From the NCBI GenBank assembly GCA_964642485.1, contig CAZXPA010000001.1, positions 1-39,459 of the forward strand: DNA of 39,459 nt, written 5' to 3'. Shown here one piece after another: positions 954-36,828 of this stretch. The translations under genes were made by a program, and so were the position numbers. Each line of letters begins with the position of its first letter. The stretch's first letter is position 1. The notes beneath the pieces were generated by a model, which did not search any database, was not told the DNA's origin, and saw only the letters and a program-made list of their open reading frames with translations. Source of the DNA: an uncultured Gammaproteobacteria bacterium. Its GTDB lineage: Bacteria > Patescibacteriota > Patescibacteriia > UBA2591 > UBA6264.

Positions 954-977
954 ATGTTCAACCCCGGGGTTGAACAT
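954..977. repeat. 24-nt perfect palindrome, left copy
   Basis: ATGTTCAACCCCGGGGTTGAACAT read directly. It has a GC-only core in an AT-rich context. Confidence 0.9.
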
Positions 978-16964: not shown

Positions 16965-18588
16965 AGTTAGAATCTACTTCATAGATTATTACTTGTTCAT
17001 CTTGATAGACCTCTTTTAAGGATTTTGATTTTTTAAGTAGTTTTCCAAATTTTTCACTGCCCTTATCAACTAAAACATAAGAAGCCTGAAATTTTTCTTT
17101 AAGAATCTGAGCAGTCTGGTCGGGACTAACTTTATGGGAAACTAAATCAAGCCAGGTCTGATAAAGATTCTTATTTTTTTCATACATAAAAGTCTGGTCA
17201 AGGCCGTTAATATAGTAATTTTGAGTATTAAAATAAAATAGTTCAGGGAAAATACTCCATTTGCTTTGAAAAACAATTTCTCCTTTTTGAGTGTTATTTT
17301 TAAGCCAATAACTGGCCTTTTGGAGATAATCCAGTGGCCGGCTTTGAACGTAGGAGTTATGGAGTTTTTTAATGCTAGAATTAAGATAAAATCCTAAGAA
17401 AAAGCAGATTAAAATTATTAAAAAAATTGTGGTGATAAAATAAAAAATATTTTCTGGACCTTGAAAATATCGCTTGAATCGATTTTTAATATTAAGCCAA
17501 TTTATTTTTTCTGCTATTTGGCTAAAGATGATTCCACTAAAAAAAATGGCTGAAGGGACAAAGTATTCAATATTTCGTCTGGCTTTAAGGGTGTAAAGAA
17601 GGAAAAAGCTTGAAAGAAAAGCAAAGAACCAGGATGATGTTTTTTGCTGCTTTCTTGAGAAAATAAACCAGGCGAAGGAAATAATCCAGGGGAGTAAAAT
17701 CGGCAAGGTACTAAGGAAGAATGTTTCTGGGCCAAACGGATACCATTCAGCTCCAACCCCAACTTTATTTTGATAATTTAGGAAAGCAATTTTTACTGTT
17801 TGAAACCAATAAAAAGGAATGGTTTTAGGGAAATAAGGATTGATGATAAGGCCGGCGCCTAACCCGAGGATACAAATGGAGAGTAGTTTCAGATTGTTTT
17901 TCGAAAAAAAGTAATAGATTAAATTTTTAATAGAAAATAAAAACTTGCTGATAGAAGTCGGAAATTGATTTAAATTTTTAACCGCATTGGCCAAACAATA
18001 TATAAATACAGTGATTAACATTAATGGCCAGGTGCCATAGATCCAGACATAAAAGAAAGAAAGAATAAAAAGTCCTAAATATTTTTTTCTTAAAATAAAA
18101 TAAAAACCCAAAATTAGAATAAGAAGAGAGATGGCTGGAGCACGAATTAAAGAAAGGCGGAGGAGAAAAGGGGAAACAAGGAAACCTGTTAGGGTCCAGG
18201 GTATGGGTTTTTTTATTCTCAAATAACGGCAAAACCAATAAATAATCAGAAAAACTAAAGCAGCAAAAAAAGCTGTTGCCAGTTTAGCTTTAATTAAAGG
18301 ATCAATCTCTGCTGAAAAAGTATCAAGATTTTTAGGAGTTGGTAATTTAAGGAAAGGAATTAATAGAAAGTGATAGCCAAAATGATGGTCAACAAACAGG
18401 TCGTTATAGGTGGTAAATTGGGTCCAGGGAAAATCATGGATTAATCCTTGATCTTTTATCATCAGAGCCATTTTAGTGTGATAAAAGCTATCTGGGCCAA
18501 GGATTCCGGGCGGATGGAGAACATAAAGGAAGACAATGAAACCGAGGCCGAAAATTAAAAAATAGCCTAACCACGGCCGATTTTTCAT
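16954..18588 (-). CDS. Large polytopic membrane protein, GT-C-like putative glycosyltransferase
   Basis: About 544 aa from the ATG at 18588 (MKNRPWLGYF), with many TM helices. The track N-terminal extension (MTYFVKLLKCYNVI) is simply the translated 8-bp repeat array. It overlaps the downstream GT2 gene by 11 nt. Confidence 0.45.
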   Translation of the reverse strand: MKNRPWLGYFLIFGLGFIVFLYVLHPPGILGPDSFYHTKMALMIKDQGLIHDFPWTQFTTYNDLFVDHHFGYHFLLIPFLKLPTPKNLDTFSAEIDPLIKAKLATAFFAALVFLIIYWFCRYLRIKKPIPWTLTGFLVSPFLLRLSLIRAPAISLLILILGFYFILRKKYLGLFILSFFYVWIYGTWPLMLITVFIYCLANAVKNLNQFPTSISKFLFSIKNLIYYFFSKNNLKLLSICILGLGAGLIINPYFPKTIPFYWFQTVKIAFLNYQNKVGVGAEWYPFGPETFFLSTLPILLPWIISFAWFIFSRKQQKTSSWFFAFLSSFFLLYTLKARRNIEYFVPSAIFFSGIIFSQIAEKINWLNIKNRFKRYFQGPENIFYFITTIFLIILICFFLGFYLNSSIKKLHNSYVQSRPLDYLQKASYWLKNNTQKGEIVFQSKWSIFPELFYFNTQNYYINGLDQTFMYEKNKNLYQTWLDLVSHKVSPDQTAQILKEKFQASYVLVDKGSEKFGKLLKKSKSLKEVYQDEQVIIYEVDSNYVY

Positions 18589-18625
18589 TATAACATTATA
18601 ACATTTTAACAGTTTAACAAAATAA
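18586..18625 (-). repeat. 8-bp-period array (5 units), in phase with the start codon
   Basis: The minus strand reads TTATTTTG TTAAACTG TTAAAATG TTATAATG TTATAATG, and the final ATG is the start codon at 18588. It contains a perfect TGTTATAAT. Confidence 0.85.
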
Positions 18626-18638
18626 GTCATTTAATTGT

Positions 18639-19694
18639 TTATTTGTTAAGTTGACTCTTAATTTTTTGGATTTGTCTAACTGGCGTAGGGTCAACTTTGT
18701 TGAGTATGGCTAAATAAAAACTTATCCAGTCTCCAAGCAGGACCAATGAAATAGTTTGAACAAATTTATGATCACCAAAAATTGGAATTTCTTCCCAGCG
18801 AATATTTTCTTGATCTAACAACTTTTCAAAAGTACTTATAGCTTTTTTGATTTTAGGTTTTTTTTCTAAATCTTCAAAAATTAGAAAAACAATTTCATCT
18901 TTTAAACGCCAGGGCAGACGGCTTTCAATAGAATTGTGGAAAATTTCCGGGAATGTTTCAAAAAAGCAAAAAGTTTTACTATTTTCCGCCATTTGTGTTT
19001 TAAAACGCCGACCAATGCCTGATAAATTTTCAGGGGCAATAATAATTGGCAAGTGATCAAAGATAAAATAAGCCAGATATTTAGCAATGTTCTTTTCTAT
19101 TGGGGTTTCAGGGTAAAAAATTTGATTAAAATTTTTAAGCTGGTCTAGTGAAGGAACGATTTGAAAGTTTTTCAAATTAATCAGGTCAAGTTTTTCTAAG
19201 ATAACTAGAATTGGTATAAAAACATAACCTAGGCTTGCTCGGGCTGGGCCTTGATATTGAAATTTAAAAACAGGTAATTTTTTTTCTTGAGCCAATTTTT
19301 TTAATTTTCCACCCTGAGTAATAATTACAATTTTTGTTTTTTTCTTTATTGCCCCTTGAACACAAGACAGAGTCTCTTGAGTCTCACCTGAATAGCTAAC
19401 TGAAATAACCAGAGTATCTTTATCAACTAAGGACGGCAAGTGCCAGTCGCGAATAATAATAATTGGTTTTTTAAGTTGATCAGTAATTAGGTTCTTAATC
19501 AGTTCGCCGCCGATAGCTGAACCACCCATTCCACTAATAACAATGTTTTTAATATTTTTATAGGCTTGAGGCAGCTTTATTTTCTGGCTTAGATTATAGG
19601 CTTTTAGGCATTGATCAGGTAAATCAGCAATAAAATCAGCCATACCTGATTTATCCAGGTCTTTAATTTTTTTAAGGTCATCAAGAATAGTCAT
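18639..19694 (-). CDS. Bifunctional phosphoglucose/phosphomannose isomerase (SIS-domain)
   Basis: ISGMGGSAIGGE and SYSGETQET motifs. 351 aa, typical of the PGI/PMI family. Confidence 0.75.
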   Translation of the reverse strand: MTILDDLKKIKDLDKSGMADFIADLPDQCLKAYNLSQKIKLPQAYKNIKNIVISGMGGSAIGGELIKNLITDQLKKPIIIIRDWHLPSLVDKDTLVISVSYSGETQETLSCVQGAIKKKTKIVIITQGGKLKKLAQEKKLPVFKFQYQGPARASLGYVFIPILVILEKLDLINLKNFQIVPSLDQLKNFNQIFYPETPIEKNIAKYLAYFIFDHLPIIIAPENLSGIGRRFKTQMAENSKTFCFFETFPEIFHNSIESRLPWRLKDEIVFLIFEDLEKKPKIKKAISTFEKLLDQENIRWEEIPIFGDHKFVQTISLVLLGDWISFYLAILNKVDPTPVRQIQKIKSQLNK

Positions 19695-19774
19695 ATTAAA
19701 TCATTAGAACATTAGAATATTGACGTATGGTAACATTGTAACAGAAATAATGCCTATTGTCTATAATCTAAATT

Positions 19775-19814
19775 ATGTTAGAATGTTAAAATGTTAAGAT
19801 GTTAAAATGATTTT
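19775..19814 (+). repeat. 8-bp-period array (5 units), in phase with the start codon
   Basis: ATGTTAGA ATGTTAAA ATGTTAAG ATGTTAAA ATGATTTT, then the ATG at 19815. ATGs fall at 19775, 19783, 19791, 19799, 19807 and 19815. Confidence 0.9.
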
Positions 19815-20540
19815 ATGAGCGGGCATAGTAAATGGGCCAAGCTAAAACATTTCAAAGGGGCGCTTGACGCTAAAAAAGGCGCTATGTTTACTAAGCTTGG
19901 GCATGCTATTACTATAGCTGCCCGGCAAGGTGGCGGTGACCCAGAATCTAATTTTAAACTGCGCTTAGCTATTGAAAGTGCTAAAAAAGCGAATTTACCC
20001 AAGAATAATATTGAGCGGGCCATTAAAAGGGGGACCGGTGAGTTGGCCGGGGAACAAATTGAAGAGGTTGTTTATGAAGCTTTTGGCCCGGGTAAAACTG
20101 CTTTAGTAATCGAAGCCTTAACTGATAACAAGAATCGAACCGTGGCCAGTTTACGACGGGTTTTTAATAAATATGGAGGGAATTTAGGCGGTCAGAATTC
20201 TGTTTGTTGGATGTTTGAAAAAAAAGGAATTATTAGAATTGCCGATTGTAAATCAAAAGTCCCTAATTTGGAAGAAGTTGAATTAAAGGCAATTGATTTT
20301 GGAGCCGAAGACATTAAAATAGAGGGTGATGAATTAGCTATTTATACTAAGCTTGAAGATTTAGAAAAGGTTAAACAAAAATTAGAAGATGAGGGAGTAA
20401 AGATAGATTATGCTGAAATAGAATGGTTTGCTAAAGATCCAATTGAAGTTGATGAGTCAGTTCAGAAAAAGGTTGATAGTATTTTTGCTGAGCTTGAGGA
20501 AATTTCAGACATAAACGACTACTATTCTAATATTAAATAA
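19815..20540 (+). CDS. YebC/PmpR-family transcriptional regulator
   Basis: MSGHSKWAKLKHFKGALDAKKG is the family-defining N-terminus. 241 aa. Confidence 0.9.
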   Translation: MSGHSKWAKLKHFKGALDAKKGAMFTKLGHAITIAARQGGGDPESNFKLRLAIESAKKANLPKNNIERAIKRGTGELAGEQIEEVVYEAFGPGKTALVIEALTDNKNRTVASLRRVFNKYGGNLGGQNSVCWMFEKKGIIRIADCKSKVPNLEEVELKAIDFGAEDIKIEGDELAIYTKLEDLEKVKQKLEDEGVKIDYAEIEWFAKDPIEVDESVQKKVDSIFAELEEISDINDYYSNIK

Positions 20541-20572
20541 TTGTTAAATTGTTTAATTGTTAAGTTGTTATG
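20541..20572 (+). repeat. 8-bp-period array (4 units)
   Basis: TTGTTAAA TTGTTTAA TTGTTAAG TTGTTATG. The last three nt are the ruvC ATG. TGTTAAATTGTTTAAT is shared exactly with 31835-31866. Confidence 0.85.
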
Positions 20573-22304: not shown

Positions 22305-23816
22305 ATGAAAAGGCCTTTAAGAGTTGTTCATATTAGCTCTGAAATTTCGCCTTATTCTAAGAGTGGAGGCTTGGCTGATGTGGCTCGATCTCTGCCTCGG
22401 GCCTTACGCCGGTTGGGCCATCAGGTGATAGTTGTCACCCCTTATTATGGTTTTATAAAAAAGAGAGACTGGCCCTTAGAAAATTTGAGCGCTCGATTAA
22501 CCCTGGAATTTGCCGGCCATCAATATAAGTTTGGTTTTAAAAAAGTTATTTGCCCGGATAATTATCCGGTCTTTTTTGTCTGTCAACGAGAATTATTTGG
22601 TTCGCGCCAGAGAGGGGGTTCAGGGATGTATGCTTATCCGGATAATGGTTTAAGGTTTTTATTATTTGATTTAGCCGCTATTGAGCTGATAAAGATTTTA
22701 AAATTTGAGCCTCATGTTATTCATTGTCATGATTGGCATGCTGGCCTGGTTCCTAATTATTTAAAAATAAGGTATAAGAATGATGAGAAATTGAAAAATA
22801 TCGCTACTCTTTTTACAATTCATAATTTACTTTTTCAAGGCCCGGAAGATTGGTGGAGGATTTCACCAGAAAAAACAGATAATGGCAGGGGCTTGCCGAA
22901 AGAAGACTTGGAGAAACTAAAATGGCTTAACTTTACTAAAAGAGCAATTTTCCATGCTGACCTGATTAATACTGTAAGTATGTGTCATGCTCGAGAGATA
23001 ATGACGCCAGAATTTGGTTGTCATTTAGACGATTGTCTCCGGAAACGCAAAAAAGATGTTTACGGAATTGTTAATGGTGTTGATTATGCAATTTTTAACC
23101 CCCAATTTGATTCAGATGTTTATATTAACTATGATGCTGATTCTTTAGAAAAAAAGGTTGAAAATAAATTGATTCTTCAAAAGAAGTTTGGATTAAAAAT
23201 TGATCCAGAGCTTCCTTTAATTGGCTTAGCCAATCGTTTAACCGAGCAAAAGGGATTCAAGTTAATTATCGATCTTTTAGATTATCTTTTGAAATTGGAT
23301 TTACAAATTGCTATTATTGGTAGTGGCGGGGGGATTTATGCTGATGCTCTCCGGGTTACCAGACGAAAACATCCTAAAAAGATATTATTTGTTTCTCCTT
23401 TTAGAGAAGATATTGCCAGGAAAATTTATGCCGCTTCAGATATTTATTTAATGCCTTCCCGTTTTGAGCCTTGCGGGATTTCTCAGTTAATCAGTCTGCG
23501 TTATGGGTCGATTCCAATTGTTCATGCAGTTGGCGGACTCGCGGATACAGTCAGTGATTACAACCCAAAAACTGGAAGAGGAAATGGTTTTGTTTTTACT
23601 TCTTATAATTCAAGAGACCTTTTATTTGCCTTAGCCCGAGCTTTGGAGAATCATCGCCGGCGAGGGGCCTGGCAAACATTGGTTCGTCGAGCTATGAAAG
23701 AGTCTTATTCTTGGACTTTGCCAGCTAAAAAATATGCTGTCCTTTATCGCAAGGCAATAAAGAAACATAGAGACCAATTAAACAATTTAACAATTAAACA
23801 AGCAGATAGAAAATAG
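22305..23816 (+). CDS. glgA: Glycogen/starch synthase (GT5)
   Basis: VVHISSEISPYSKSGGLADV (K-x-GGL motif), HCHDWHAG and PSRFEPCGISQL motifs. Confidence 0.9.
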   Translation: MKRPLRVVHISSEISPYSKSGGLADVARSLPRALRRLGHQVIVVTPYYGFIKKRDWPLENLSARLTLEFAGHQYKFGFKKVICPDNYPVFFVCQRELFGSRQRGGSGMYAYPDNGLRFLLFDLAAIELIKILKFEPHVIHCHDWHAGLVPNYLKIRYKNDEKLKNIATLFTIHNLLFQGPEDWWRISPEKTDNGRGLPKEDLEKLKWLNFTKRAIFHADLINTVSMCHAREIMTPEFGCHLDDCLRKRKKDVYGIVNGVDYAIFNPQFDSDVYINYDADSLEKKVENKLILQKKFGLKIDPELPLIGLANRLTEQKGFKLIIDLLDYLLKLDLQIAIIGSGGGIYADALRVTRRKHPKKILFVSPFREDIARKIYAASDIYLMPSRFEPCGISQLISLRYGSIPIVHAVGGLADTVSDYNPKTGRGNGFVFTSYNSRDLLFALARALENHRRRGAWQTLVRRAMKESYSWTLPAKKYAVLYRKAIKKHRDQLNNLTIKQADRK

Positions 23817-23821
23817 AAAAA

Positions 23822-23885
23822 TTAACTAATTTCCAATTTCCATTTTCTATACCAATTTCTAATTTCTAATAACCAATTTCTAATT
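23822..23885 (+). repeat. Dispersed 64-nt AT-rich intergenic element, copy 1
   Basis: TTAACTAATTTCCAATTTCCATTTTCTATACCAATTTCTAATTTCTAATAACCAATTTCTAATT. It is identical to 35741-35804 except at 2 positions and abuts the ATG at 23886. Confidence 0.9.
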
Positions 23886-25184: not shown

Positions 25185-25224
25185 TTGTTAAATTGTTATA
25201 TTGTTATATTGTTAGAATGTTAAA
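25185..25224 (+). repeat. 8-bp-period array (5 units), in phase with the start codon
   Basis: TTGTTAAA TTGTTATA TTGTTATA TTGTTAGA ATGTTAAA, then the ATG at 25225. Confidence 0.9.
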
Positions 25225-26628
25225 ATGATTATCTATGACCTAATCCATGGCTATCAGCCATTTGATCCAGGCGATCCAGTTCCTGAGTGGATAAAAGGGA
25301 ATTTAAAACAAATTTTTTTACCTACTTCCTTGGCAATGAAAAAAGGTTTAATTCCTCGAGGGGCTCAGCTTCAAGGCTGGACTATTGATGTCTGGTTAGC
25401 AGCAAAAAAACCAATAAGGGATTTGGCTAAAAAAACTTTTAATAATTTAAAAATTGCCAATCAAAAAGGAAATATAGAAATTGGCATTAGTGCTTATAGC
25501 CATCCGATTTTACCAATGCTAAGCAGTGATTTAATTCAAGCCCAGATTCTCTTAGACAAAGAGGTGGTTGAACAGTATCTTGGTAAAGCAACCTGGTTTT
25601 GGCCGCCAGAGGGAGCAATTGATAGACGAGTTTTAAAAATAATTCACCAGACCTTTCCTAATTTAATTTTACTAATTCCCGACAAGGCAATTGGCAGGTA
25701 TAATTTTAGTGGACCAATAAAAATTAAGTTTCCTGACTCGCCCTGCCTGCCTGGCGGCCGGCAGGCGGCCGGCAGGAAAAAGGATTTTCAAAAAGCCATT
25801 GTTTTTAATACTTTGTTGAAGGATTTATTTATGAATGCCGAGGATTACCGGAAAAAGCCAAAATATATTAAAAGACCAAAGCACTTGCCTGATAAATTAG
25901 TCTGGTCACAGGTTCGTCGGATGGTTCATTCTCCTAAAGTATTTTTACAAGTTTTAGAATATTTGCGCTCCGCGCAAAATTCTCTTACCAATTACGAATC
26001 TAAACGAATTACGAATAAATTTAAAAGTGATTGCTTTGTTTTAATGAGGGACTGGGAGAATGCTGGTTCTAAAAGAGGGCTGAGAAAAATAAAGGGAGCT
26101 GTCCCTGAACAGAGATTGCCCCCAAAAGAGATTGGTAATTTTTTAAAATTTAGAAATCAAACCGGCCCGTCTGGCTTTGCCAGGCCAAGCGGGCGGATAA
26201 ATTTTTGCCTGCCCAGTCAATTTAATTGGCAAAGAGCAGAAATTATCCCAATTTCTAAGATTATCCCCTGTTCTTGGGATATGGAATCAACCCCCAAAGA
26301 TCCTTTTCCCTGGTGGCAGCCAAATAAACATGGGGCAGTTTGGCGGAAATGCAAACCTTTTCGGAGAAAGAGAATGATTGAATGGCAAGAGTTAATTAAA
26401 GAATTTAATCAGATTTTTCAACAAAGGATTAAACAGCAAGGAGGGCTAAAAAAAGCTTTGAAAAATAAAGAGTTTAAAGATTTGTTAAAAAGGACTCTGC
26501 CAGCTCTTCATTCTTGTATTGGTTGGCATTATTTTGCTAAACGAGCCTGGAAACCAGATTATCAATATTCTCAGCAGGCCTTGAAGAATATAGTTTTACC
26601 AGGTTTAAAAAGGTTAAAAAATTTATGA
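25225..26628 (+). CDS. Divergent GH57-like protein, paralog 2, carrying GC-rich and low-complexity inserts
   Basis: LIHGYQPF, SAYSHPILPML, FWPPEGAID and LMRDWENAG align loosely with GH57 regions of the flanking paralogs. The middle of the protein is basic and low-complexity. Its stop overlaps the next start (ATGA). Confidence 0.5.
   Translation: MIIYDLIHGYQPFDPGDPVPEWIKGNLKQIFLPTSLAMKKGLIPRGAQLQGWTIDVWLAAKKPIRDLAKKTFNNLKIANQKGNIEIGISAYSHPILPMLSSDLIQAQILLDKEVVEQYLGKATWFWPPEGAIDRRVLKIIHQTFPNLILLIPDKAIGRYNFSGPIKIKFPDSPCLPGGRQAAGRKKDFQKAIVFNTLLKDLFMNAEDYRKKPKYIKRPKHLPDKLVWSQVRRMVHSPKVFLQVLEYLRSAQNSLTNYESKRITNKFKSDCFVLMRDWENAGSKRGLRKIKGAVPEQRLPPKEIGNFLKFRNQTGPSGFARPSGRINFCLPSQFNWQRAEIIPISKIIPCSWDMESTPKDPFPWWQPNKHGAVWRKCKPFRRKRMIEWQELIKEFNQIFQQRIKQQGGLKKALKNKEFKDLLKRTLPALHSCIGWHYFAKRAWKPDYQYSQQALKNIVLPGLKRLKNL
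25741..25776. repeat. In-frame GC-rich palindromic block
   Basis: CCCTGCCTGCCTGGCGGCCGGCAGGCGGCCGGCAGG. It contains an 11-nt tandem CGGCCGGCAGG x2 (25755-25776), and CCTGCC is complementary to GGCAGG. It encodes PCLPGGRQAAGR. Confidence 0.8.
26162..26196. repeat. In-frame GC-rich nested hairpin
   Basis: In CCGGCCCGTCTGGCTTTGCCAGGCCAAGCGGGCGG, GCCCG pairs with CGGGC and CTGGC with GCCAG. It encodes TGPSGFARPSGR. Confidence 0.7.
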
Positions 26629-28676: not shown

Positions 28677-29756
28677 ATGATATTTATTAAAGTTAAAACA
28701 AGGATAGACCCAAAAAAAACCCTTGATAAAGAGTACATGTTTTCATTTTTTAAAAAAAGAGGACAGAAATTTTTATCTATAAACGAGAAATTAATTGATT
28801 TGAAAATTGATTTGATTAGAAATTTCCAAGGTAAATTCAGGAATATGGGTTTGAGATATGAATTAATAATAACCCCTGCCAATTCCCCCTTAAAAAGGGG
28901 GAGAAAAAGAAGGGGCGTGAGGAAAAAGATAGTTCGAGCCAGAATTCACAAATATCAAGATATCCCCAGAAGAGAATGGCGAGTTCTTAATTATTTTAAA
29001 AAAGTCGGTCTAGAAAAAATTACTCCTCGACCCTTAGATTATTTTAAGCCTTTAAACATACTTTTTTATTTAGAAACCCCTGGATACTCTTTTGAAGGAA
29101 TACTTGCCCAAAGAAAGCCAAACATACTTTTAAGATTTGTTCCTTTAATTGCTAAATGGTTAAATCGGATTCATGGTTTAAATAAAAGACTAGCATTTTT
29201 ACCTGTTAAAACCATTCAAGAGGAAAAACGCGAGCGTCAACATTGGTTTTTTTTGGTAAGAAAATGTATGCCGAGTTTTTATCCTTTATTCAGCCAACTT
29301 TTAAAAGAGCTTTGGGGTTTAAAACAAAAAAACAAAGGCCTGTTTTTAAAGCCTTCTCAATATAGGTTGGTTCATGGAGATTTTCATTGGGGGAACATTA
29401 TTAGGAACAAAAATAATTTCCGGATAATAGATTTTGGCACAGCTTTTTTAGGAGATCCTTTGGAAGATATTGGTGGTTTTTTAGCTCAAAATGATTCAAT
29501 GTTCCGCTATTATGCTCCTAGATTTATAAAAAAGAGCCGGGAAATTAGAGAGGTTTTTTTAAAGAATTATTTTAAAAAGCCTTTTTTAAAGAGCCAGAAA
29601 TGCCGCTTGCTTTATTTTGAAATTCAGAAAATATTAGAGATGGCCGCAATTTTGGCCCTTATTGAATCAAATGAAAAAAACAAAACAAGAGGCGTGGCAA
29701 GATTATTAAGAGAGGCAGAAAAAAAAATTAAAATTGTTAAAATGTTAAAATGTTAA
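28677..29756 (+). CDS. APH-fold (aminoglycoside/choline/maltokinase-like) phosphotransferase
   Basis: LVHGDFHWGNII (HGDxxxxN catalytic loop) and IIDFGTAFLGDPLEDIG (DFG plus DPxxD). The substrate cannot be determined from sequence. Confidence 0.7.
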   Translation: MIFIKVKTRIDPKKTLDKEYMFSFFKKRGQKFLSINEKLIDLKIDLIRNFQGKFRNMGLRYELIITPANSPLKRGRKRRGVRKKIVRARIHKYQDIPRREWRVLNYFKKVGLEKITPRPLDYFKPLNILFYLETPGYSFEGILAQRKPNILLRFVPLIAKWLNRIHGLNKRLAFLPVKTIQEEKRERQHWFFLVRKCMPSFYPLFSQLLKELWGLKQKNKGLFLKPSQYRLVHGDFHWGNIIRNKNNFRIIDFGTAFLGDPLEDIGGFLAQNDSMFRYYAPRFIKKSREIREVFLKNYFKKPFLKSQKCRLLYFEIQKILEMAAILALIESNEKNKTRGVARLLREAEKKIKIVKMLKC

Positions 29757-29773
29757 ATTGTTAAATTGTCCTA
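29734..29773 (+). repeat. 8-bp-period array spanning a stop codon and the next start
   Basis: TTGTTAAA ATGTTAAA ATGTTAAA TTGTTAAA TTGTCCTA. It encodes the kinase C-terminus KIVKMLKC* and ends at the PHP ATG (29773). Confidence 0.85.
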
Positions 29774-31786: not shown

Positions 31787-31834
31787 TTTTTGTTTGTTTT
31801 TTCTTCTTTTTTAAGATTTAAAGAGCTCCTTTAT

Positions 31835-31866
31835 TGTTAAATTGTTTAATTGTTAAATTGTTTAAT
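31835..31866 (+). repeat. 8-bp-period array (TGTTAAAT TGTTTAAT x2)
   Basis: The array lies on the plus strand between two minus-strand genes and overlaps the LysM-CHAP stop at 31862-31864. Its orientation is opposite to both flanking genes. Confidence 0.85.
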
Positions 31867-33070
31867 TGCTTTTAGGGTAAATATAGCCAAGGATTTTCCA
31901 GCCGTTCTGCCATTGTTTAGTAATATTTTTAAGAGAACGTTCTGAATATTGTCGACGTTTTAGTCCATTCATTTCAGAAATAGTTACTGTGCTCTCATCA
32001 AAACTTTCGACATAAGCCACGTGGCCATAATAACCACAGATCCAACTAGTACAGGTTAGGGTCATAATTGCTCCCTGACGAGGAGAGGATCCTGTTTCAT
32101 AGCCGTCTTTTTGGGCTTTTCTGTACCAATATTTAGCATGACTCCAGGAGGGGACACATTGACCCTGTTCAGTTGCCCATTTAAAAGCAGCCCAATCAGT
32201 ACATTGTCTAGAAACAAATCTATGACATTTAGTGTTGCTCCGCCAGTCCCAATAGTTTGAATAATTTTCTTGGACCAACTGAGGGGCAACTGACTGGTAT
32301 TTAGGTGCAGGCGGAGGTGGTGGGGTTCCTTCAGGGATAATAAGAATCTCGCCTGGTTTAAGAATTGACTCCTCTGTTAAATTATTGAATTCAGCGATTT
32401 GTTTGGTTGAAGCTTTGTATTTTTCTGCTAAATAAGAAAGGTTTTCACCCGTTTTTACTTTATGGGTTATTCCATTTATCGGCAGGATTTTTAATTCATC
32501 CCCTGGTCGGATAACAGACCAATAACCAAGATTATTTTCCCAGAGAACCGTACTCCATTTAAGGCCAAAGTTTTCAGCAATTGTACTGATTGTATTACCA
32601 GGTTGAACTATGTATTTTTCTATCTCCGTTCGGGTTATGCTTAAGAAATCAATCTCATTGACTTCTGTTTCTGGAGCCACTAAAATACTGCCCCCGAGAA
32701 TCAGAGCGATTTCTGAGTCCTCGCTTATGTCTATTATATCATCCTCACGCCAGGCGGCGATTTGAAAGTCTTGTTTTTGTTGGTCTTCACTTTCGTCAGA
32801 AATAGTCAGTAAGCCAGTTTCAATAATTATCTCTTGTTTTTGGAGAATTAATTTAGCCAGAAAACTTTCATTAGTTATTGCTGTTATTTCAAAATAAGAG
32901 AAAATAGTGAAAAGAACAATAATTACAATCAAAGGGGCTTGTTTAAAAGAGAAAAGTCGTCTTTGACATTTAAAATAAAAGCGGAAGATATAAATGAATC
33001 TTAAAATAATCTTTCGTCCTAGGCCTGCAGGCATTAATCGACTAAAATTTTTTGGCAAACTAATTTGCAT
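31862..33070 (-). CDS. LysM-CHAP peptidoglycan hydrolase, membrane-anchored
   Basis: Two LysM motifs (YIVQPGNTISTIAENFG and HKVKTGENLSYLAEKY), a PPPPPAP linker, and a CHAP domain (QCTDWAAFKW ... GHVAYVES). The ATG at 33070 is preferred over the track TTG at 33076. Confidence 0.8.
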   Translation of the reverse strand: MQISLPKNFSRLMPAGLGRKIILRFIYIFRFYFKCQRRLFSFKQAPLIVIIVLFTIFSYFEITAITNESFLAKLILQKQEIIIETGLLTISDESEDQQKQDFQIAAWREDDIIDISEDSEIALILGGSILVAPETEVNEIDFLSITRTEIEKYIVQPGNTISTIAENFGLKWSTVLWENNLGYWSVIRPGDELKILPINGITHKVKTGENLSYLAEKYKASTKQIAEFNNLTEESILKPGEILIIPEGTPPPPPAPKYQSVAPQLVQENYSNYWDWRSNTKCHRFVSRQCTDWAAFKWATEQGQCVPSWSHAKYWYRKAQKDGYETGSSPRQGAIMTLTCTSWICGYYGHVAYVESFDESTVTISEMNGLKRRQYSERSLKNITKQWQNGWKILGYIYPKSN

Positions 33071-33166
33071 AAACAAAAATTTATGCTATGCTTAGTATGC
33101 GAATAATTTATTCGTAGCATTCGCATATTATTCGTAGATTAGCATTATTATTACAATTAGTCAAGT

Positions 33167-35737
33167 ATGGGTTATCAACAGGGGCAAAAAGGCCATAATT
33201 ATCAAAAAATTAACCCCGCACCAGGGCAGAGCTCGATGCGGGGCAAGAAAAAAGCGGCAAGTGATTTTAATAAGATAGAAAGGAAGTGGCAACGTGTCTG
33301 GAAGAAGTTAAACCTTCATCAGGCTAAAGATTTTGATAAAAAACCAAAGCAGTACATTTTAATTGAGTTTCCTTATCTTTCTGGACAAGGACTTCATGTT
33401 GGTCATGTTCGAAGTTATAGCGCCTTAGACGCTTTAGCCAGGAAAAAGAGAATGGAAGGTTATAATGTCCTTTATCCCATTGGTTGGGATGCTTTTGGTT
33501 TGCCAACAGAGAACTATGCGATTAAAACCGGTCTTCACCCAAAAGAAATTATCAGACAAAATATTAAACTTTTCAAGCGTCAATTAAAAAGTTTAGGCCT
33601 TTCTTTTGATTGGTCAAGAGAGATTAATACTTCTGACCCTAAATATTACAAATGGACGCAATGGATTTTTTTAAAACTTTTTGAAAAGGGACTAGCCTAC
33701 CAAGCGGAAATTCCGATTAATTGGTGTCCAAAATGTAAAATCGGCCTGGCTAATGAAGAGGTAGTTGGCGGTAGATGTGAGCGTTGTGGAATTGAAGCAG
33801 AGAGACGGGAGCAAAAACAATGGATGCTGAAAATTACTGCTTATGCTGATAGAATGCTTCAAGATTTAGAAAAGGTAGATTATTTAGAAAAAATAAAAGC
33901 TCAGCAGATTAATTGGATTGGCCGAAGTCAGGGAACAATTGTAAAATTTAAGTTGGCAATCAACAATCCCTATGGGCCGTTGGCCCCGGGCCAGAGGCAA
34001 CAATCAGCAATCAATGATATCGAAGTATTTACTACTCGAATAGATACACTTTTTGGGGTAACGGCAATGGTTTTAGCCCCAGAGCACAGAATAATTTCAG
34101 ATTTAAGATTGCAGATTGAAAATTGGAAAGAAGTTAAAGAATATATTAAAGCCTCAAAGAAAAAAAGCGAGTTAGAAAGGACAGATCTTGCGAAAGAAAA
34201 GACAGGCGTCCCCTTGAAGGGGGTATTCGCTATTAATCCCGCGAACCAGGAAAAAGTTCCCATTTGGATTGGTGATTATGTGATTGCTACTTATGGCGGT
34301 GGAGCAGTAATGGTTGTCCCGGCTCACGACAAACGGGATTATATCCTGGCTAAAAAATATGGGCTGAAGATTAAGCAAGTTATTAAATCAGCAATCAGCA
34401 ATCAAGCTTTTGTTGACTATGGGGTTTTAGTAAATTCTGGAGAATTTAATGGATTAAGTTCTGAGCAGGCAATTAAAAAAATAACTCAGTGGTTAAAAAA
34501 GAAAAAGCAAGGAGATTTTTCAATTCATTACAAGCTTCGCGATTGGGTTTTTTCCCGTCAGCATTATTGGGGAGAACCAATACCAATTATTCATTGTCAA
34601 AAATGTGGTCCAGTTCCAGAAAAGGATTTGCCAGTTGAGCTTCCTTACGTCAAAAGTTATAAGCCAACAGAAACCGGCCAATCGCCTTTAGCAGCGATTA
34701 AGGATTGGGTTAATGTTAAATGTCCAAAATGTGGTGGTCCAGGAAAAAGAGAAACAGATACTATGCCGAATTGGGCTGGCTCAAATTGGTATTTTTTACG
34801 TTATCTTGACTCCAACAATGATCAGGTCTTAGCTGATTTTAAAAAATTAAAATATTGGTTGCCCGTTGATCTATATAATGGAGGGATGGAACATACCACC
34901 TTACATCTTTTTTATTCTCGTTTTTGGCACAAATTTTTATTTGATATCAAAGTAGTTCCAACTCCAGAACCGTATGCTAAGCGCCGGTCTCATGGTATAG
35001 TTTTAGCTGAAGACGGGAGAAAAATGAGTAAAAGTTTTAATAACGTTATTAATCCTGATGAAATAATTAAATCTTTTAGCGCTGATACTCTTCGTCTTTA
35101 TGAAATGTTTATGGGGCCATTTGATCAGGCAATTGCTTGGGACACAAAGACCATTGAAGGAGTATCCAGGTTTTTAACGAAAGTTAAGAATTTAGTATTG
35201 AAAAATAAGAATAAAAAGAAGAAAACAGCAAAAACTCAGAAATTAGAACAAATAGAACATCAAACAATTGGAAAAGTCAGCCAGGACTTAGAAAACATGA
35301 AATTTAATACAGCAATTGCTGCTTTAATGAAGTATACGAATGCGTTGACATTGGAACATGAGAACATTAGAACATTGGAACATATTAAAACTTTATTGTT
35401 GTTGTTGGCGCCGTTTGCGCCACACTTGGCTGAAGAGCTTTGGCATCAAATCCAGCCGGAATTGTCAGAAAAGCAAAGTATTTTTCAGGAGAAATGGCCA
35501 AAATTTGATCCAAAATTAGCCAAGGAAAAACAAATTGAATTAGTGATTCAGATTAATGGCCGGGTTCGGGGTAGAGTTTTAGCTCCAGCTGATATTTCTC
35601 AGGCCGAAGCAGAAGAATTAGCTTTAAAACAAAAGAACATTCAGCGTCATTTGACTGGGGAAAAGGTAAGAAAGATTATTTTCATTCCCGGGAAACTCAT
35701 TAACCTAGTAATTGAGCAAGAGGAAAATAGAAAATAA
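33167..35737 (+). CDS. leuS: Leucyl-tRNA synthetase
   Basis: PYLSGQGLHVGHVRSY (HIGH), FTTRIDTLFG, KMSKS and the CP1 editing region. An alternative start at 33236 (MRGKKK) would remove a non-conserved Q/G-rich N-terminus. Confidence 0.92.
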   Translation: MGYQQGQKGHNYQKINPAPGQSSMRGKKKAASDFNKIERKWQRVWKKLNLHQAKDFDKKPKQYILIEFPYLSGQGLHVGHVRSYSALDALARKKRMEGYNVLYPIGWDAFGLPTENYAIKTGLHPKEIIRQNIKLFKRQLKSLGLSFDWSREINTSDPKYYKWTQWIFLKLFEKGLAYQAEIPINWCPKCKIGLANEEVVGGRCERCGIEAERREQKQWMLKITAYADRMLQDLEKVDYLEKIKAQQINWIGRSQGTIVKFKLAINNPYGPLAPGQRQQSAINDIEVFTTRIDTLFGVTAMVLAPEHRIISDLRLQIENWKEVKEYIKASKKKSELERTDLAKEKTGVPLKGVFAINPANQEKVPIWIGDYVIATYGGGAVMVVPAHDKRDYILAKKYGLKIKQVIKSAISNQAFVDYGVLVNSGEFNGLSSEQAIKKITQWLKKKKQGDFSIHYKLRDWVFSRQHYWGEPIPIIHCQKCGPVPEKDLPVELPYVKSYKPTETGQSPLAAIKDWVNVKCPKCGGPGKRETDTMPNWAGSNWYFLRYLDSNNDQVLADFKKLKYWLPVDLYNGGMEHTTLHLFYSRFWHKFLFDIKVVPTPEPYAKRRSHGIVLAEDGRKMSKSFNNVINPDEIIKSFSADTLRLYEMFMGPFDQAIAWDTKTIEGVSRFLTKVKNLVLKNKNKKKKTAKTQKLEQIEHQTIGKVSQDLENMKFNTAIAALMKYTNALTLEHENIRTLEHIKTLLLLLAPFAPHLAEELWHQIQPELSEKQSIFQEKWPKFDPKLAKEKQIELVIQINGRVRGRVLAPADISQAEAEELALKQKNIQRHLTGEKVRKIIFIPGKLINLVIEQEENRK
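33974..33998. repeat. In-frame GC-rich palindromic block flanked by CAATCA-type direct repeats
   Basis: GGGCCGTTGGCCCCGGGCCAGAGGC contains GGGCC/GGCCC and GGCCC/GGGCC pairings. The flanks are GGCAATCAACAATCCC (33955-33970) and GGCAACAATCAGCAATCAATG (33996-34016). Confidence 0.7.
34386..34407 (+). repeat. 7-bp tandem repeat inside leuS
   Basis: AATCAGC AATCAGC AATCAAGC. Three 7-nt units total 21 nt and preserve the frame. It encodes KSAISNQA. Confidence 0.8.
35344..35383 (-). repeat. 8-bp-period array (5 units) inside leuS, inverted orientation
   Basis: The plus strand reads GTTGACAT TGGAACAT GAGAACAT TAGAACAT TGGAACAT, the reverse complement of ATGTTCCA-type units. It encodes LTLEHENIRTLEH. 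Confidence 0.85.
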
Positions 35738-35740
35738 AAA

Positions 35741-35804
35741 TTAACTAATTTCCAATTTCCATTTTCTATACTAATTTCGAATTTCTAATAACCAATTTCT
35801 AATT
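35741..35804 (+). repeat. Dispersed 64-nt AT-rich intergenic element, copy 2
   Basis: It differs from 23822-23885 at 2 positions. Similarity extends upstream into the stop-codon regions (GAAAATAGAAAA) of leuS and glgA. Confidence 0.9.
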
Positions 35805-35842
35805 TCTTTTACTTTTTTAAATTCTGCCAGTAATCGTTAGTT

Positions 35843-36748
35843 ATGATACTCTTAAGGGAAGTTAAGGCTCTCTGTAGAGAGTATAATATCAAGCCTTTGC
35901 GGAGGCGAGGGCAAAATTTTTTAATTAACAATTTAGTTATTAAAAAAGTTTTAGAAGCAGCTGATTTAAAAAAACAAGATGTTGTTTTGGAGATTGGAGC
36001 TGGTTTAGGTACTTTAACAAAAGAAATAGCAAGGAAAGTAAAAAAAGTTATCGCAGTTGAAATTGATAAAGAGTTAGTTAAGGCTTTAAAAAATGAATTG
36101 AAGGGCTACAAAAATGTTGAAATAGTTCAGGAAGATATTCGAAACAATCGTTTAATCGTTAAATTGTTAAATTGTTATCCTGAATATAAGGTGGTGGCTA
36201 ATCTGCCTTTTAATATTACCGGCTTGGTTTTAAGACAGTTTTTAGCAGGCGAAAATAAGCCCCAATCCATGGTTTTGATTTTACAAAAAGAGGCTGGTGA
36301 AAGAATTGTTGCCCGGCCCCCCAAAATGTCTCGGCTAGCTCTAACAATTCAATTTTATGGTCAAGCCAAGATTATTGCTCAAGTTAAAAAAGATAATTTT
36401 TGGCCAAAACCAAAGGTTGACTCTACGATTCTTCGAATCGTTCCTACGAATTATCCTAGACCCGTTCTGGAACGGACCGAGGGCGAATCTGATACCAATA
36501 TAAATGAGGACAGGTTTTTTCAAATTATTCGGGCTGGATTTTCTTCACCTCGTAAATATTTACTTAACAATTTAGCAAAAAGTGGTATAATGGGGACTGT
36601 CCCCGAATGGGGACTGTCCCCAAAAGAGACAGTAAGACAAGTTTTTAAACAAATAGGGCTGAGTCCTAAAGTAAGGGCGCAGGAATTGTCAGTTGAAGAG
36701 TGGATAAAGCTTGCAGAAACATTAGAACATGAGAACATGAGAACATGA
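35843..36748 (+). CDS. rsmA: 16S rRNA (adenine1518/1519-N6)-dimethyltransferase
   Basis: RRGQNFLIN, VLEIGAGLGTLT (SAM motif), VANLPFNIT and FWPKPKVDS motifs. Confidence 0.9.
   Translation: MILLREVKALCREYNIKPLRRRGQNFLINNLVIKKVLEAADLKKQDVVLEIGAGLGTLTKEIARKVKKVIAVEIDKELVKALKNELKGYKNVEIVQEDIRNNRLIVKLLNCYPEYKVVANLPFNITGLVLRQFLAGENKPQSMVLILQKEAGERIVARPPKMSRLALTIQFYGQAKIIAQVKKDNFWPKPKVDSTILRIVPTNYPRPVLERTEGESDTNINEDRFFQIIRAGFSSPRKYLLNNLAKSGIMGTVPEWGLSPKETVRQVFKQIGLSPKVRAQELSVEEWIKLAETLEHENMRT
36147..36178 (+). repeat. 8-bp-period array (4 units) inside rsmA
   Basis: ATCGTTTA ATCGTTAA ATTGTTAA ATTGTTAT. It encodes RLIVKLLNCY, in the variable segment before the NLPF motif. Confidence 0.85.
36589..36622 (+). 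repeat. 17-bp tandem duplication of a GC palindrome inside rsmA
   Basis: AATGGGGACTGTCCCCG AATGGGGACTGTCCCCA. Each unit contains the palindrome GGGGAC-T-GTCCCC. It encodes MGTVPEWGLSP. Confidence 0.9.
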
Positions 36749-36754
36749 GAACAA
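36715..36754 (-). repeat. 8-bp-period array (5 units) forming the rsmA C-terminus and stop, inverted orientation
   Basis: The plus strand reads AGAAACAT TAGAACAT GAGAACAT GAGAACAT GAGAACAA. It encodes ETLEHENMRT*, with the TGA at 36746-36748. Confidence 0.85.
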
Positions 36755-36788
36755 AAAAATAAAAGAAAATTTTGTGAAACAAAATTTA

Positions 36789-36828
36789 ATGTTCCAATGT
36801 TCCAATGTTAAAATGTTAAAATGATTTT
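36789..36828 (+). repeat. 8-bp-period array (5 units) upstream of the next gene
   Basis: ATGTTCCA ATGTTCCA ATGTTAAA ATGTTAAA ATGATTTT, then TT and the ATG at 36831. It is partly complementary to the 36715-36754 array. Confidence 0.9.

What the first reader, a model, noticed from the sequence alone, without database searches (positions are those of the whole stretch)
35344..35383. The intergenic 8-bp repeat family also builds parts of conserved proteins (shared TLEHEN(I/M)RT peptide in LeuRS and RsmA)
- **Seen, leuS:** five inverted 8-bp units (xxGAACAT) lie inside leuS at 35344-35383 and encode LTLEHENIRTLEH.
- **Seen, rsmA C-terminus:** five such units form the last 11 codons and the stop of rsmA (36715-36754, ETLEHENMRT*).
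- **Seen, rsmA interior:** four forward units lie inside rsmA (36147-36178, RLIVKLLNCY).
- **Seen, kinase:** forward units supply the kinase C-terminus (29734-29756, KIVKMLKC*).
- **Seen, artefacts:** translated arrays also create the false N-terminal extensions in the ORF track at 18630 and 29758.
- **Inference:** two unrelated housekeeping enzymes share an identical peptide only because the same DNA repeat sits in both. The repeats therefore spread into, or expand within, coding DNA at variable segments and termini. Because 8 nt is not a multiple of 3, each intrusion must have a compensated length, and the leuS array is 40 nt embedded in context.
Basis: partly seen in the sequence, partly recalled or inferred. 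Interest (0 to 1): 0.6.

Follow-up and report, generated by a model that had tools for sequence, protein, structure and literature searches.

The report
8-base repeats translated inside housekeeping genes
In this tiny-genome (Patescibacteria) bacterium, a family of 8-base tandem repeats that normally sits at gene starts also lies inside conserved genes. There it is read in all three frames, so unrelated enzymes carry the same short peptide, and close relatives gain, lose or resize these copies.

Summary
The window holds 10 arrays of at least 3 TGTT cores spaced 8 bp apart, against 0.02 expected. No other period from 5 to 12 gives any.

**Where the 12 arrays lie (counting two degenerate ones)**
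- Two lie inside genes: leuS 35344-35383 and rsmA 36146-36177.
- Three form C-terminal tails: rsmA 36715-36754, the APH kinase and GlgA.
- The rest abut start codons.

**Why LeuRS TLEHENIRT and RsmA TLEHENMRT match**
- Both are the same DNA, (NNGAACAT)n, read in the same phase.
- Resampling synonymous codons for the same LeuRS protein reproduces the array in 29 of 20,000 trials. Shuffling codon order never does.

**What relatives show**
- A relative about 92% identical in DNA differs by exactly two units (16 nt) at the kinase/PHP junction.
- It lacks the rsmA and GlgA tail arrays.
- It has two extra in-gene arrays. One is a 48-nt (six-unit) insertion in another LeuRS loop.
- The leuS array persists in a relative with 73% LeuRS identity, with unusually conserved synonymous sites.

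**Most likely explanation:** slippage-prone junction repeats are seeded into coding DNA and survive only in variable loops and tails, in stop-free unit variants.

I rate this a new variant of a known kind.

The parts
35344..35383 (-). C-type 8-bp array inside leuS. The family's forward unit ATGTTCNN is on the minus strand and NNGAACAT is on the coding strand. Five units, the first degenerate. Encodes LTLEHENIRTLEH.
   Evidence: The same array sits at the same site in L081 and L082, and a degenerate, interrupted copy in L083.
36715..36754 (-). C-type array that forms the last 10-11 codons and the TGA stop of rsmA (ETLEHENMRT*).
   Evidence: It is absent in L081, degenerate in L084 (KTLEYDNKK*), and P0127 ends AETLEH.
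36146..36177 (+). Forward A-type, partly degenerate array inside rsmA. Encodes RLIVKLLNCY in the loop before NLPFNIT.
   Evidence: There are arrays at the same loop in L081, L324, L325 and L326. In the AF2 model it is a short helix of lower confidence.
29728..29769 (+). Forward A-type array that supplies the APH-kinase tail (KIVKMLKC*) and lies just before the PHP gene's ATG at 29774.
   Evidence: L081 and the run X5 contigs are exactly 16 nt (2 units) shorter, and the kinase tail differs.
23775..23801 (-). Reverse array (TTGTTTAA/TTGTTAAA units) inside the C-terminal tail of the GlgA-like gene. Encodes QLNNLTIKQ.
   Evidence: It is absent from the relative L327, which has a different tail.
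36788..36823 (+). Forward array (two C-type then two A-type units) ending about 8 nt before the next gene's ATG at 36831. It is the right arm of an imperfect inverted repeat with 36715-36754.
   Evidence: The fold has dG -27.1 kcal/mol and z -5.0. It is conserved in L084.
18586..18620 (-). A-type array at the start of the minus-strand gene. It contains TGTTATAATG twice and causes a false 14-codon N-terminal extension.
   Evidence: It is identical in L327.
19702..19721 (-). Short C-type array (2.5 units), 8 nt upstream of the minus-strand gene 18639..19694 and in that gene's orientation.
19775..19809 (+). A-type array ending 6 nt before the YebC-like gene's ATG at 19815.
   Evidence: In L327 it is split by a 38-nt GC-rich hairpin.
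20539..20572 (+). A-type array between the stop of gene 19815..20540 and the ATG of the RuvC-like gene at 20570.
   Evidence: Units have turned over relative to L327.
25185..25227 (+). A-type array abutting the GH57 gene start.
   Evidence: In L081 it is replaced by a different short repeat.
31833..31868 (+). A-type array at the stop of the minus-strand LysM/CHAP gene, antisense to both neighbouring genes.
   Evidence: In L081 it is split by a 36-nt GC-rich hairpin.
33167..35737 (+). leuS (leucyl-tRNA synthetase, 856 aa), host of the interior C-type array.
35843..36748 (+). rsmA/ksgA (16S rRNA dimethyltransferase, 301 aa), host of one interior array and one tail array.
28677..29756 (+). APH-family kinase gene whose last roughly 7 codons and stop come from the array.

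Best explanation
This Patescibacteria lineage carries a family of imperfect 8-bp tandem arrays with unit WTGTTMNN, 3-5 units long.

**Usual position (shown) and likely role (inferred).**
- Most arrays sit at gene junctions, pointing at the downstream gene and ending 6-10 nt before its ATG. This is shown.
- The A-type units spell TGnTA(A/T)AAT, an extended -10 box. The 8-nt period places an ATG seven bases downstream of each box.
- They therefore probably act as promoter and start modules for leaderless mRNAs. This is inferred. No transcript data exist.

**How the arrays change (shown) and by what mechanism (inferred).**
- Arrays change in whole units. This is shown by a 16-nt difference.
- Arrays appear and disappear between relatives of about 92% DNA identity. 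This is also shown.
- The most likely causes are slipped-strand mispairing and local re-seeding. This is inferred.

**What happens inside a gene.**
- Eight is not a multiple of three, so successive units are read in the three phases: GAA-CAT gives E-H, xxG-AAC-ATx gives x-N-I/M, and xGA-ACA-Txx gives R-T-L.
- The result is an 8-residue peptide period, TLEHENIR.
- Any two genes that hold the array in the same phase therefore share a peptide.

**Which copies survive.**
- Homogeneous A-type units contain TAA in both orientations, so they can only end a reading frame. That is how they write C-terminal tails and stops (kinase MLKC*).
- The C variant read on the opposite strand (NNGAACAT) has GAA where TAA would be.
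- It stays open if the two variable bases avoid TGA or TAG in the relevant phase. They do in leuS. In rsmA they do not, and the array supplies the stop.

**Where copies persist.**
- Copies persist only in surface-variable loops and tails, where the protein tolerates them.
- In-frame changes come in 24-nt steps, as in the 48-nt insertion in the relative's leuS.

I judge the encoded peptides to be passengers rather than functional motifs.
For: **The family is real and specific to period 8.**
- 10 arrays are seen against 0.02 expected, and no other period gives any.
- Arrays occur in the window, L081 and L082. Among 80 other LeuRS loci with 50-64% identity, none has one.

**Position and orientation.**
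- Forward arrays begin 32-42 nt before sense-strand starts in the window, L084, L210, L252 and L284.
- Coding DNA is 93% of the window, yet only 2 of 12 arrays are interior to genes.

**DNA origin of the peptide.**
- The synonymous-resampling and codon-shuffle nulls are both rejected.
- Relatives with the peptide also have the repeat DNA.

**Turnover between relatives.**
- A 16-nt indel at the kinase/PHP junction changes the kinase tail. The same indel is seen in contigs of a separate run.
- The rsmA and GlgA tail arrays are absent in L081/L327.
- L081 has extra arrays in LeuRS loop 2 (+16 codons) and in an RsmA loop.

**Stop-codon logic.** The table of unit variants shows which are open or closed in each orientation.

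**Tolerated sites.**
- The segments are variable across orthologues.
- The leuS array aligns to the inter-helix segment of T. thermophilus LeuRS 1H3N residues 755-775.
- In the RsmA model, residues 101-110 have pLDDT 76 against 91-95 in the neighbouring blocks, and the tail falls from 74 to 47.

**A parallel 7-nt family behaves the same way.** AAATCCG and AAATTCA arrays inside leuS of L083 and L084 encode KSEIRNP and KFKIQNS.
Against: **Signs of a constraint on the DNA itself.**
- The leuS array is more conserved at the DNA level than a passenger should be.
- Against L082 (73% LeuRS identity), 37 of 40 bases are identical, which puts it in the top 1.5% of 40-nt windows.
- All 10 core codons keep their synonymous bases. 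The expected probability is about 1e-3.
- The rsmA interior array is recognisable in relatives with only 56-64% RsmA identity.
- This points to a DNA-level constraint or to repeated homogenisation, which the passenger model does not explain.

**Patchy distribution.** On the LeuRS tree the site-1 array is present in two of three clades and absent in the sister of L082.

**Orientation bias.** All five independent C-type copies in genes are antisense, although sense copies would more often be open.

**Gaps in the evidence.**
- No unit-number variation was seen within a population. Only assembled contigs were available, and those drop rare variants.
- The promoter role has no transcript support, because no RNA runs exist.
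Confidence: 0.75

Rival explanations
1. The in-gene arrays are functional DNA or RNA sites kept by selection, so these stretches are dual-coding. They could be recognition sites for a lineage-specific DNA-binding protein, or internal or antisense promoter-like elements. This can coexist with the origin proposed above.
For: - Synonymous sites in the GAACAT cores are conserved between the window and L082 (expected probability about 1e-3). The array is in the top 1.5% of leuS 40-nt windows for DNA identity, although it lies in the most variable protein segment.
- The rsmA interior array persists across distant relatives, one of which has perfect TGTTATAAT boxes.
- All in-gene C-type copies share one orientation.
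- GAACAT is enriched in the window, with 41 copies against 17.7 expected. It also forms perfect palindromes, GAACATGTTC, at 1726-1748.
Against: - Copies are lost or degenerate in sister lineages without visible consequence (L084, L335, and L083 where a hairpin splits the array).
- The tail arrays differ between relatives of about 92% DNA identity.
- The leuS array has no RNA structure signal (z +0.67) and no Rfam match.
- C-type units lack the A at position 2 of the -10 hexamer, a base I recall to be critical.
- Codon preference explains part of the conservation, since GAA, CAT and AGA are favoured codons.
Confidence: 0.25
2. The arrays are spread by an active copy mechanism linked to the putative HUH-type (tyrosine) transposase gene at 985-1716. 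Its flanking palindromes end in the same hexamers (ATGTTC...GAACAT), so the in-gene copies would be insertions of a mobile sequence rather than local slippage products.
For: - ATGTTCAACCCCGGGGTTGAACAT flanks the ORF on both sides.
- The half-arm AGAACATG(TTCAA) is reiterated at its right end.
- The same unit variants (TG, TA, GA) occur in coding and non-coding arrays.
- The arrays are multi-copy in the metagenome, as shown by depth spikes and many loose ends at the arrays.
Against: - The ORF has no Pfam hit.
- The arrays have no terminal hairpins, no fixed length and no target duplication.
- The observed changes are in whole units and in place.
- Other lineages carry unrelated 7-nt repeats at the very same loops, which fits local slippage hot spots.
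Confidence: 0.1
3. The shared peptide is selected at the protein level as a convergent motif, or the periodicity is a chance or assembly artefact.
For: The peptide is hydrophilic and helix-compatible. It sits in helices or turns in both models.
Against: - With the protein fixed, the DNA periodicity is reproduced in only 29 of 20,000 resamplings. Non-preferred codons (AAC 24%, GAG 28%, ACA 25%) are used throughout.
- The same units occur in non-coding DNA.
- The structural contexts in LeuRS and RsmA are unrelated.
- Several separate assemblies and runs carry the arrays.
Confidence: 0.03

Closest known systems
Rickettsia palindromic elements (RPEs) inserted in frame in protein genes (reviewed in PMC10969869)
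   Same: - One repeat family occurs both between genes and inside conserved housekeeping genes.
- It stays in frame and sits in tolerant protein segments.
- Unrelated proteins end up sharing a peptide.
- Presence and absence differ between relatives.
   Different: - By my recollection RPEs are discrete palindromic elements of roughly 100-150 bp, with a length that is a multiple of three.
- Here the unit is an 8-bp tandem repeat with no palindrome in the leuS copy (z +0.67).
- Array length varies in 8-nt steps.
- The reading frame rotates through all three phases.
Borg tandem repeats that create amino-acid repeats (PMC9879509)
   Same: - Tandem repeats are found in both intergenic DNA and ORFs.
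- They turn over rapidly between close relatives.
- They create new, poorly structured protein segments.
   Different: - In Borgs every repeat inside an ORF has a unit length divisible by three. The repeats are near-perfect and arise locally with unrelated sequences.
- Here the units are 8 nt (and 7 nt) and imperfect.
- They belong to one genome-wide family and sit in essential chromosomal genes of a bacterium.
Simple-sequence contingency loci (slipped-strand phase variation in Haemophilus, Neisseria, Campylobacter)
   Same: - Short units whose length is not a multiple of three lie at gene 5' ends or inside ORFs.
- They change by whole units through slippage.
- Unit changes at the kinase tail alter the reading frame.
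   Different: - Contingency tracts are long and perfect, and they switch genes on and off within a population.
- These arrays are short (3-5 units) and imperfect.
- They are fixed in frame inside essential genes, and the available contigs showed no switching.
Extended -10 (TGn) promoters driving leaderless mRNAs
   Same: - A-type units plus the next two bases read TGTTATAAT or TGTTAAAAT.
- An ATG lies 7 nt downstream.
- This applies to the family's intergenic members.
   Different: - The boxes are stacked in tandem at an 8-bp period.
- The in-gene C-type copies read TGTTCnnAT, without the A at hexamer position 2.
- Some of those copies point where there is no gene to drive.
- No transcription start site data exist.

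Membership tests
RPE-like in-frame mobile palindromic repeat | The element is a palindrome able to fold as a hairpin. | tested here: not met
   The leuS array region folds no better than shuffles (z +0.67). Only the pair of opposed arrays at the rsmA end folds (z -5.0).
RPE-like in-frame mobile palindromic repeat | The same repeat family is dispersed in intergenic DNA and inserted in frame in conserved genes. | tested here: met
   There are 12 arrays in the window, 5 of them largely in coding DNA. The reading frames are intact and continue into conserved domains.
RPE-like in-frame mobile palindromic repeat | A discrete element of fixed length, a multiple of 3. | tested here: not met
   The arrays have 2.5-5 units of 8 nt, and a 16-nt length difference separates relatives.
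Tandem-repeat-derived amino-acid repeats (Borg type) | The unit length inside ORFs is divisible by three. | tested here: not met
   The units are 8 nt (window) and 7 nt (L083, L084), and the peptide period equals the unit length in residues.
Tandem-repeat-derived amino-acid repeats (Borg type) | Rapid gain and loss between close relatives. | tested here: met
   The tail arrays and two interior arrays differ between the window and L081/L327, which share about 92% DNA identity.
Contingency locus (phase-variable simple-sequence repeat) | Unit number varies within a population and switches the reading frame on and off. | tested here: inconclusive
   Only assembled contigs could be laid, and they show no variation within a sample. 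Between lineages, a 16-nt change shifts only the kinase tail.
Contingency locus (phase-variable simple-sequence repeat) | A long, perfect repeat tract. | tested here: not met
   The arrays have 3-5 units at 85-96% match, with heterogeneous NN positions.
Extended -10 / leaderless promoter (for the family's junction copies) | A TGnTATAAT-like box placed about 7 nt upstream of the transcription start and ATG. | tested here: met
   - TGTTAAAAT is followed by 6 nt and then ATG at 19815.
- TGTTATAAT units overlap the likely start at 18588.
- Arrays begin 32-42 nt before starts in 7 loci.
- This is a sequence match only.
Extended -10 / leaderless promoter (for the family's junction copies) | Transcripts start at the predicted position. 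| not testable with these tools
   No RNA run holds the stretch.
Extended -10 / leaderless promoter (for the in-gene C-type copies) | A at position 2 of the -10 hexamer. | tested here: not met
   C-type units read TGTTC(T/C)(A/C)AT, with hexamer TCnnAT.

The most novel reading that the evidence does not exclude
**First part: selection on the DNA.**
- The in-gene arrays would be kept by selection on the DNA itself and would not be mere passengers.
- They would be dual-coding sites inside essential genes, for example recognition sites for a lineage-specific DNA-binding protein or a tyrosine transposase.
- That would explain their conserved synonymous sites and their uniform orientation.

**Second part: landing pads.**
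- The arrays also serve as landing pads for this lineage's GC-rich hairpin elements.
- In 3 of 3 cases seen, the element had inserted at the same AAT^GTT point of a unit and in the same orientation.

**Consequence.** Together these would form a layered system in which one repeat family directs where another inserts, including inside genes.
Probability: 0.2. Interest if true: 0.75.

Novelty: new variant of a known kind. Interest (0 to 1): 0.55.

Why it matters
**A route from non-coding repeat to protein sequence.**
- The case shows how non-coding, promoter-like repeats become protein sequence in a streamlined genome.
- The repeat unit is not a multiple of three. It is nevertheless translated by cycling through all three frames, which gives an 8-residue period.
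- New loops, new C-terminal tails and new stop codons arise and disappear between relatives only about 8% apart in DNA.

**Practical consequences.**
- The arrays create false N-terminal extensions in ORF calls.
- They create spurious local similarity between unrelated proteins.
- They break short-read assemblies, since Logan contigs end at the arrays.

**If the DNA-level conservation proves to be selective,** these would be dual-coding elements inside essential genes of an uncultivated phylum whose promoters and regulators are essentially unknown.

Tried and rejected

**Searches for variation within populations.**
- Laying eight public runs gave only Logan contigs.
- They confirm the window-type and the L081-type alleles in separate samples.
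- They cannot reveal rare unit-number variants.
- A flank-anchored pattern with a variable gap found nothing in JGI metagenomes.

**RNA evidence.** No run holds the stretch, so the promoter idea stays untested.

**Scans that were uninformative.**
- The canonical sigma-70 promoter and terminator scan gave counts equal to shuffles.
- Rfam gave no match.

**Collection-wide pattern scans.**
- Most hits were perfect microsatellite-like arrays in unrelated phyla such as Fluviicola, Bacteroidales and Pseudoalteromonas.
- I did not treat these as the same family.
- Only the Patescibacteria hits, which have heterogeneous units, resemble ours.

**Structure and family searches.**
- The LeuRS AlphaFold model was poor overall (mean pLDDT 48). 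I used it only for the better-scored C-terminal part and leaned on the alignment to 1H3N instead.
- Pfam gave no hit for the putative transposase ORF, so that link stays a lead.

**Readings rejected.** Protein-level convergence and chance or assembly artefact are both rejected (see the rival explanations).


Full report
**What is there.**
- The window is AT-rich (GC about 0.35).
- By its LeuRS relatives it comes from a Patescibacteria/Parcubacteria-type genome recovered from seawater.
- A scan for TGTT cores spaced 8 bp apart finds 10 arrays of at least three units, against 0.02 in dinucleotide shuffles. Periods 5-7 and 9-12 give none.
- With two more degenerate arrays reported by Tandem Repeats Finder, the window has 12 arrays, all between 18.5 and 37 kb.
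- The units are of two kinds: 'A-type' WTGTTA(A/T)A and 'C-type' ATGTTCNN.

**Where the arrays sit.**
- Coding DNA makes up 93% of the window.
- Seven arrays lie at gene junctions. Most point at the downstream gene and end 6-10 nt before its ATG.
- The same geometry recurs in relatives and in other Patescibacteria loci, where arrays begin 32-42 nt before the start.
- Two arrays are interior to genes: leuS 35344-35383 and rsmA 36146-36177.
- Three make C-terminal tails: rsmA 36715-36754, the APH kinase at 29734-29756 and GlgA at 23775-23801.

**Is the shared peptide a product of DNA?**
- LeuRS TLEHENIRT and RsmA TLEHENMRT come from DNA identical at 24 of 27 bases and read in the same phase.
- With each protein held fixed and synonymous codons redrawn from the window's own usage, a four-unit GAACAT run arises in leuS in 29 of 20,000 trials.
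- With codon order shuffled, a run of four or more never arises.
- The array uses non-preferred codons throughout (AAC 24%, GAG 28%, ACA 25%).
- An 8-nt period cannot come from a protein repeat. Instead the hexamer is read as GAA-CAT (E-H), then xxG-AAC-ATx (x-N-I/M), then xGA-ACA-Txx (R-T-L), so three units give one 8-residue period.
- Every relative that has the peptide has the repetitive DNA.

**Comparative evidence for spread and turnover.** A relative from GCA_016783845.1 (L081/L327) has 94% LeuRS identity and about 92% DNA identity and is fully syntenic.
- At the kinase/PHP junction it is exactly 16 nt (two units) shorter, and the kinase ends RQIVL* instead of KMLKC*. Contigs of another run show the same 16-nt gap.
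- The rsmA tail array is absent there. The tail is VKKIEDRC* and is followed by 7-nt TTAGAAA repeats.
- The GlgA tail array is absent too.
- The relative has a C-type array in a second LeuRS loop. It reads KSLEHENIRTLEQNNENIQELEK where the window has KSAISNQ, a gain of 16 codons, which is 48 nt or six units.
- It has another C-type array in an RsmA loop (NMGTLEHGNIGTS), where the window has a duplicated GC palindrome.
- The two interior arrays of the window are conserved in the relative.

**Deeper relatives.**
- The leuS site-1 array is intact in L082 (73% LeuRS identity).
- It is degenerate and split by a 39-nt GC hairpin in L083.
- It is absent in L084 and in L335. L335 instead has a small 7-nt repeat at the same place.
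- On the LeuRS tree this distribution is patchy.
- The rsmA interior array is recognisable as DNA in L324, which reads AATGTTAC AATGTTAT AATGTTGC AATGTTAT and encodes ECYNVIMLQCYN. It is also recognisable in L325 and L326, at 56-64% RsmA identity.
- L083 carries an unrelated 7-nt repeat in that loop.

**Why these copies survive.**
- A table of unit variants shows that three identical A-type units contain TAA in either orientation. They can therefore only terminate a frame. The predicted forward translation MLKC* is exactly the kinase tail.
- One base differs between the A-type and the C-type unit. On the opposite strand it turns TAA into GAA.
- The reverse C-type array stays open only if its two variable bases avoid TGA or TAG in the phase they fall in.
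- leuS has TG, GA, TA, TG in the permissive phases.
- rsmA has GA in the phase that gives TGA, and that is its stop codon.

**The host sites are variable.**
- In 80 orthologues the LeuRS segment differs in sequence and length, and the window's version is of ordinary length.
- It aligns to the inter-helix stretch 755-775 of T. thermophilus LeuRS and is five residues shorter.
- In an RsmA model (mean pLDDT 85), the array-encoded residues form a short peripheral helix of lower confidence, and the tail ends in a low-confidence helix.
- The LeuRS model was poor overall, but its C-terminal part agrees with a helix-turn-helix at the array.

**What the family probably does elsewhere.**
- A-type units plus two bases read TGTTATAAT or TGTTAAAAT, an extended -10 box.
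- The 8-nt period puts the ATG two units on exactly seven bases after the box. This fits promoters for leaderless mRNAs.
It is not independent proof, and no RNA data exist.
- The opposed arrays across the rsmA stop fold into a long interrupted hairpin (dG -27.1 kcal/mol, z -5.0).
- The leuS array alone does not fold (z +0.67).

**What does not fit a pure passenger model.**
- Between the window and L082, the leuS array is 37/40 identical, against 73% for the gene as a whole. That places it in the top 1.5% of 40-nt windows.
- All ten codons that lie wholly in the cores keep their synonymous base. The expected probability from gene-wide rates per codon is about 1e-3.
- All five independent C-type copies in genes are antisense, although sense copies would more often be open.
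- Some constraint on the DNA, or repeated homogenisation between arrays, is therefore possible. I give it about 0.25, and it is compatible with the origin story.

**Comparison with what is known.**
- The behaviour resembles Rickettsia palindromic elements: a dispersed repeat sits in frame inside conserved genes and gives unrelated proteins a shared peptide.
- It also resembles Borg tandem repeats, which occur in and between genes, turn over quickly and create new protein segments.
- It is a member of neither. There is no palindrome and no fixed length.
- Borg repeats inside ORFs all have unit lengths divisible by three. Here 8-nt units, and in relatives 7-nt units, are translated through rotating frames.
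- It is not a classical contingency locus either. The arrays are short, imperfect and fixed in frame in essential genes.
- I found no description of such arrays in the searchable literature.

**Limits.**
- Only assembled contigs, not reads, could be laid.
- Function is inferred from sequence alone.

Noticed in passing
L081:8603-8638; L083:7262-7300 (inside leuS); L327:4387-4424: A GC-rich hairpin element (about 36-39 nt, beginning ..TGCCCYGTA and ending YGGG) is inserted into an 8-bp array in three separate places. Each time it sits between AAT and GTT of a unit and in the same orientation relative to the array. This suggests site-specific targeting of the arrays by this lineage's hairpin elements.
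   Followed up: partly
window 23828-23885 and 35745-35807; L083:6349-6406 and 7061-7092; L084:4217-4235, 4640-4672, 5543-5568: A second family of 7-nt tandem repeats (AATTTCY and its complement GAAATYY) lies upstream of genes in the window. It lies inside leuS in relatives, where it encodes 7-residue periods (KSEIRNP, KFKIQNS). P0002 LeuRS also has ISNSQFLISKQIPNSN.
   Followed up: partly
window 954-977, 1715-1766: The perfect palindrome ATGTTCAACCCCGGGGTTGAACAT flanks ORF 985-1716 on both sides, and the half-arm AGAACATGTTCAA is reiterated at the right end. Its outer hexamers are the same as the C-type unit core. The ORF has no Pfam hit at E <= 0.001.
   Followed up: partly
window 36762-36786; L084:7085-7110; L124 near 7180-7215: Between the opposed arrays lies a small palindrome, AAAATTTTGTGAAACAAAAT. 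It is conserved in two more distant Patescibacteria loci at the same kind of junction.
   Followed up: no
window 36589-36622 versus L081:13314-13354: The exact 17-bp duplicated GC palindrome in rsmA (MGTVPEWGLSP) occupies the same loop where the close relative has a five-unit C-type array. A 30-nt GC-rich insert at 36454 is also absent in the relative and in runs X4, X5 and X6.
   Followed up: partly
window 33108-33152 versus L081:9887-9919; window 25185-25227 versus L081:160-205: The spacers upstream of leuS and of GH57 hold different short repeats in the two relatives. One has an 8-bp array where the other has a 9-11 or 20-nt ATTCGTA/ATTAGCAT-type repeat. Whole repeat families are therefore swapped at the same junction within about 8% DNA divergence.
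   Followed up: no
loci L085-L204 and L205-L284 (genome contigs pattern hits): Perfect 8-bp arrays built on GAACAT (for example TTGAACAT x5-12) or TGTTAAA occur in many unrelated genomes. Several copies per genome are seen in Fluviicola and in some Bacteroidales MAGs. Long heterogeneous C-type arrays (7-13 units) occur in other low-GC metagenome contigs (L329-L334).
   Followed up: partly
L081:1771-3024: The close relative carries an extra AAA_14/DUF4143 gene between the GH57 paralogues. The window lacks it.
   Followed up: no
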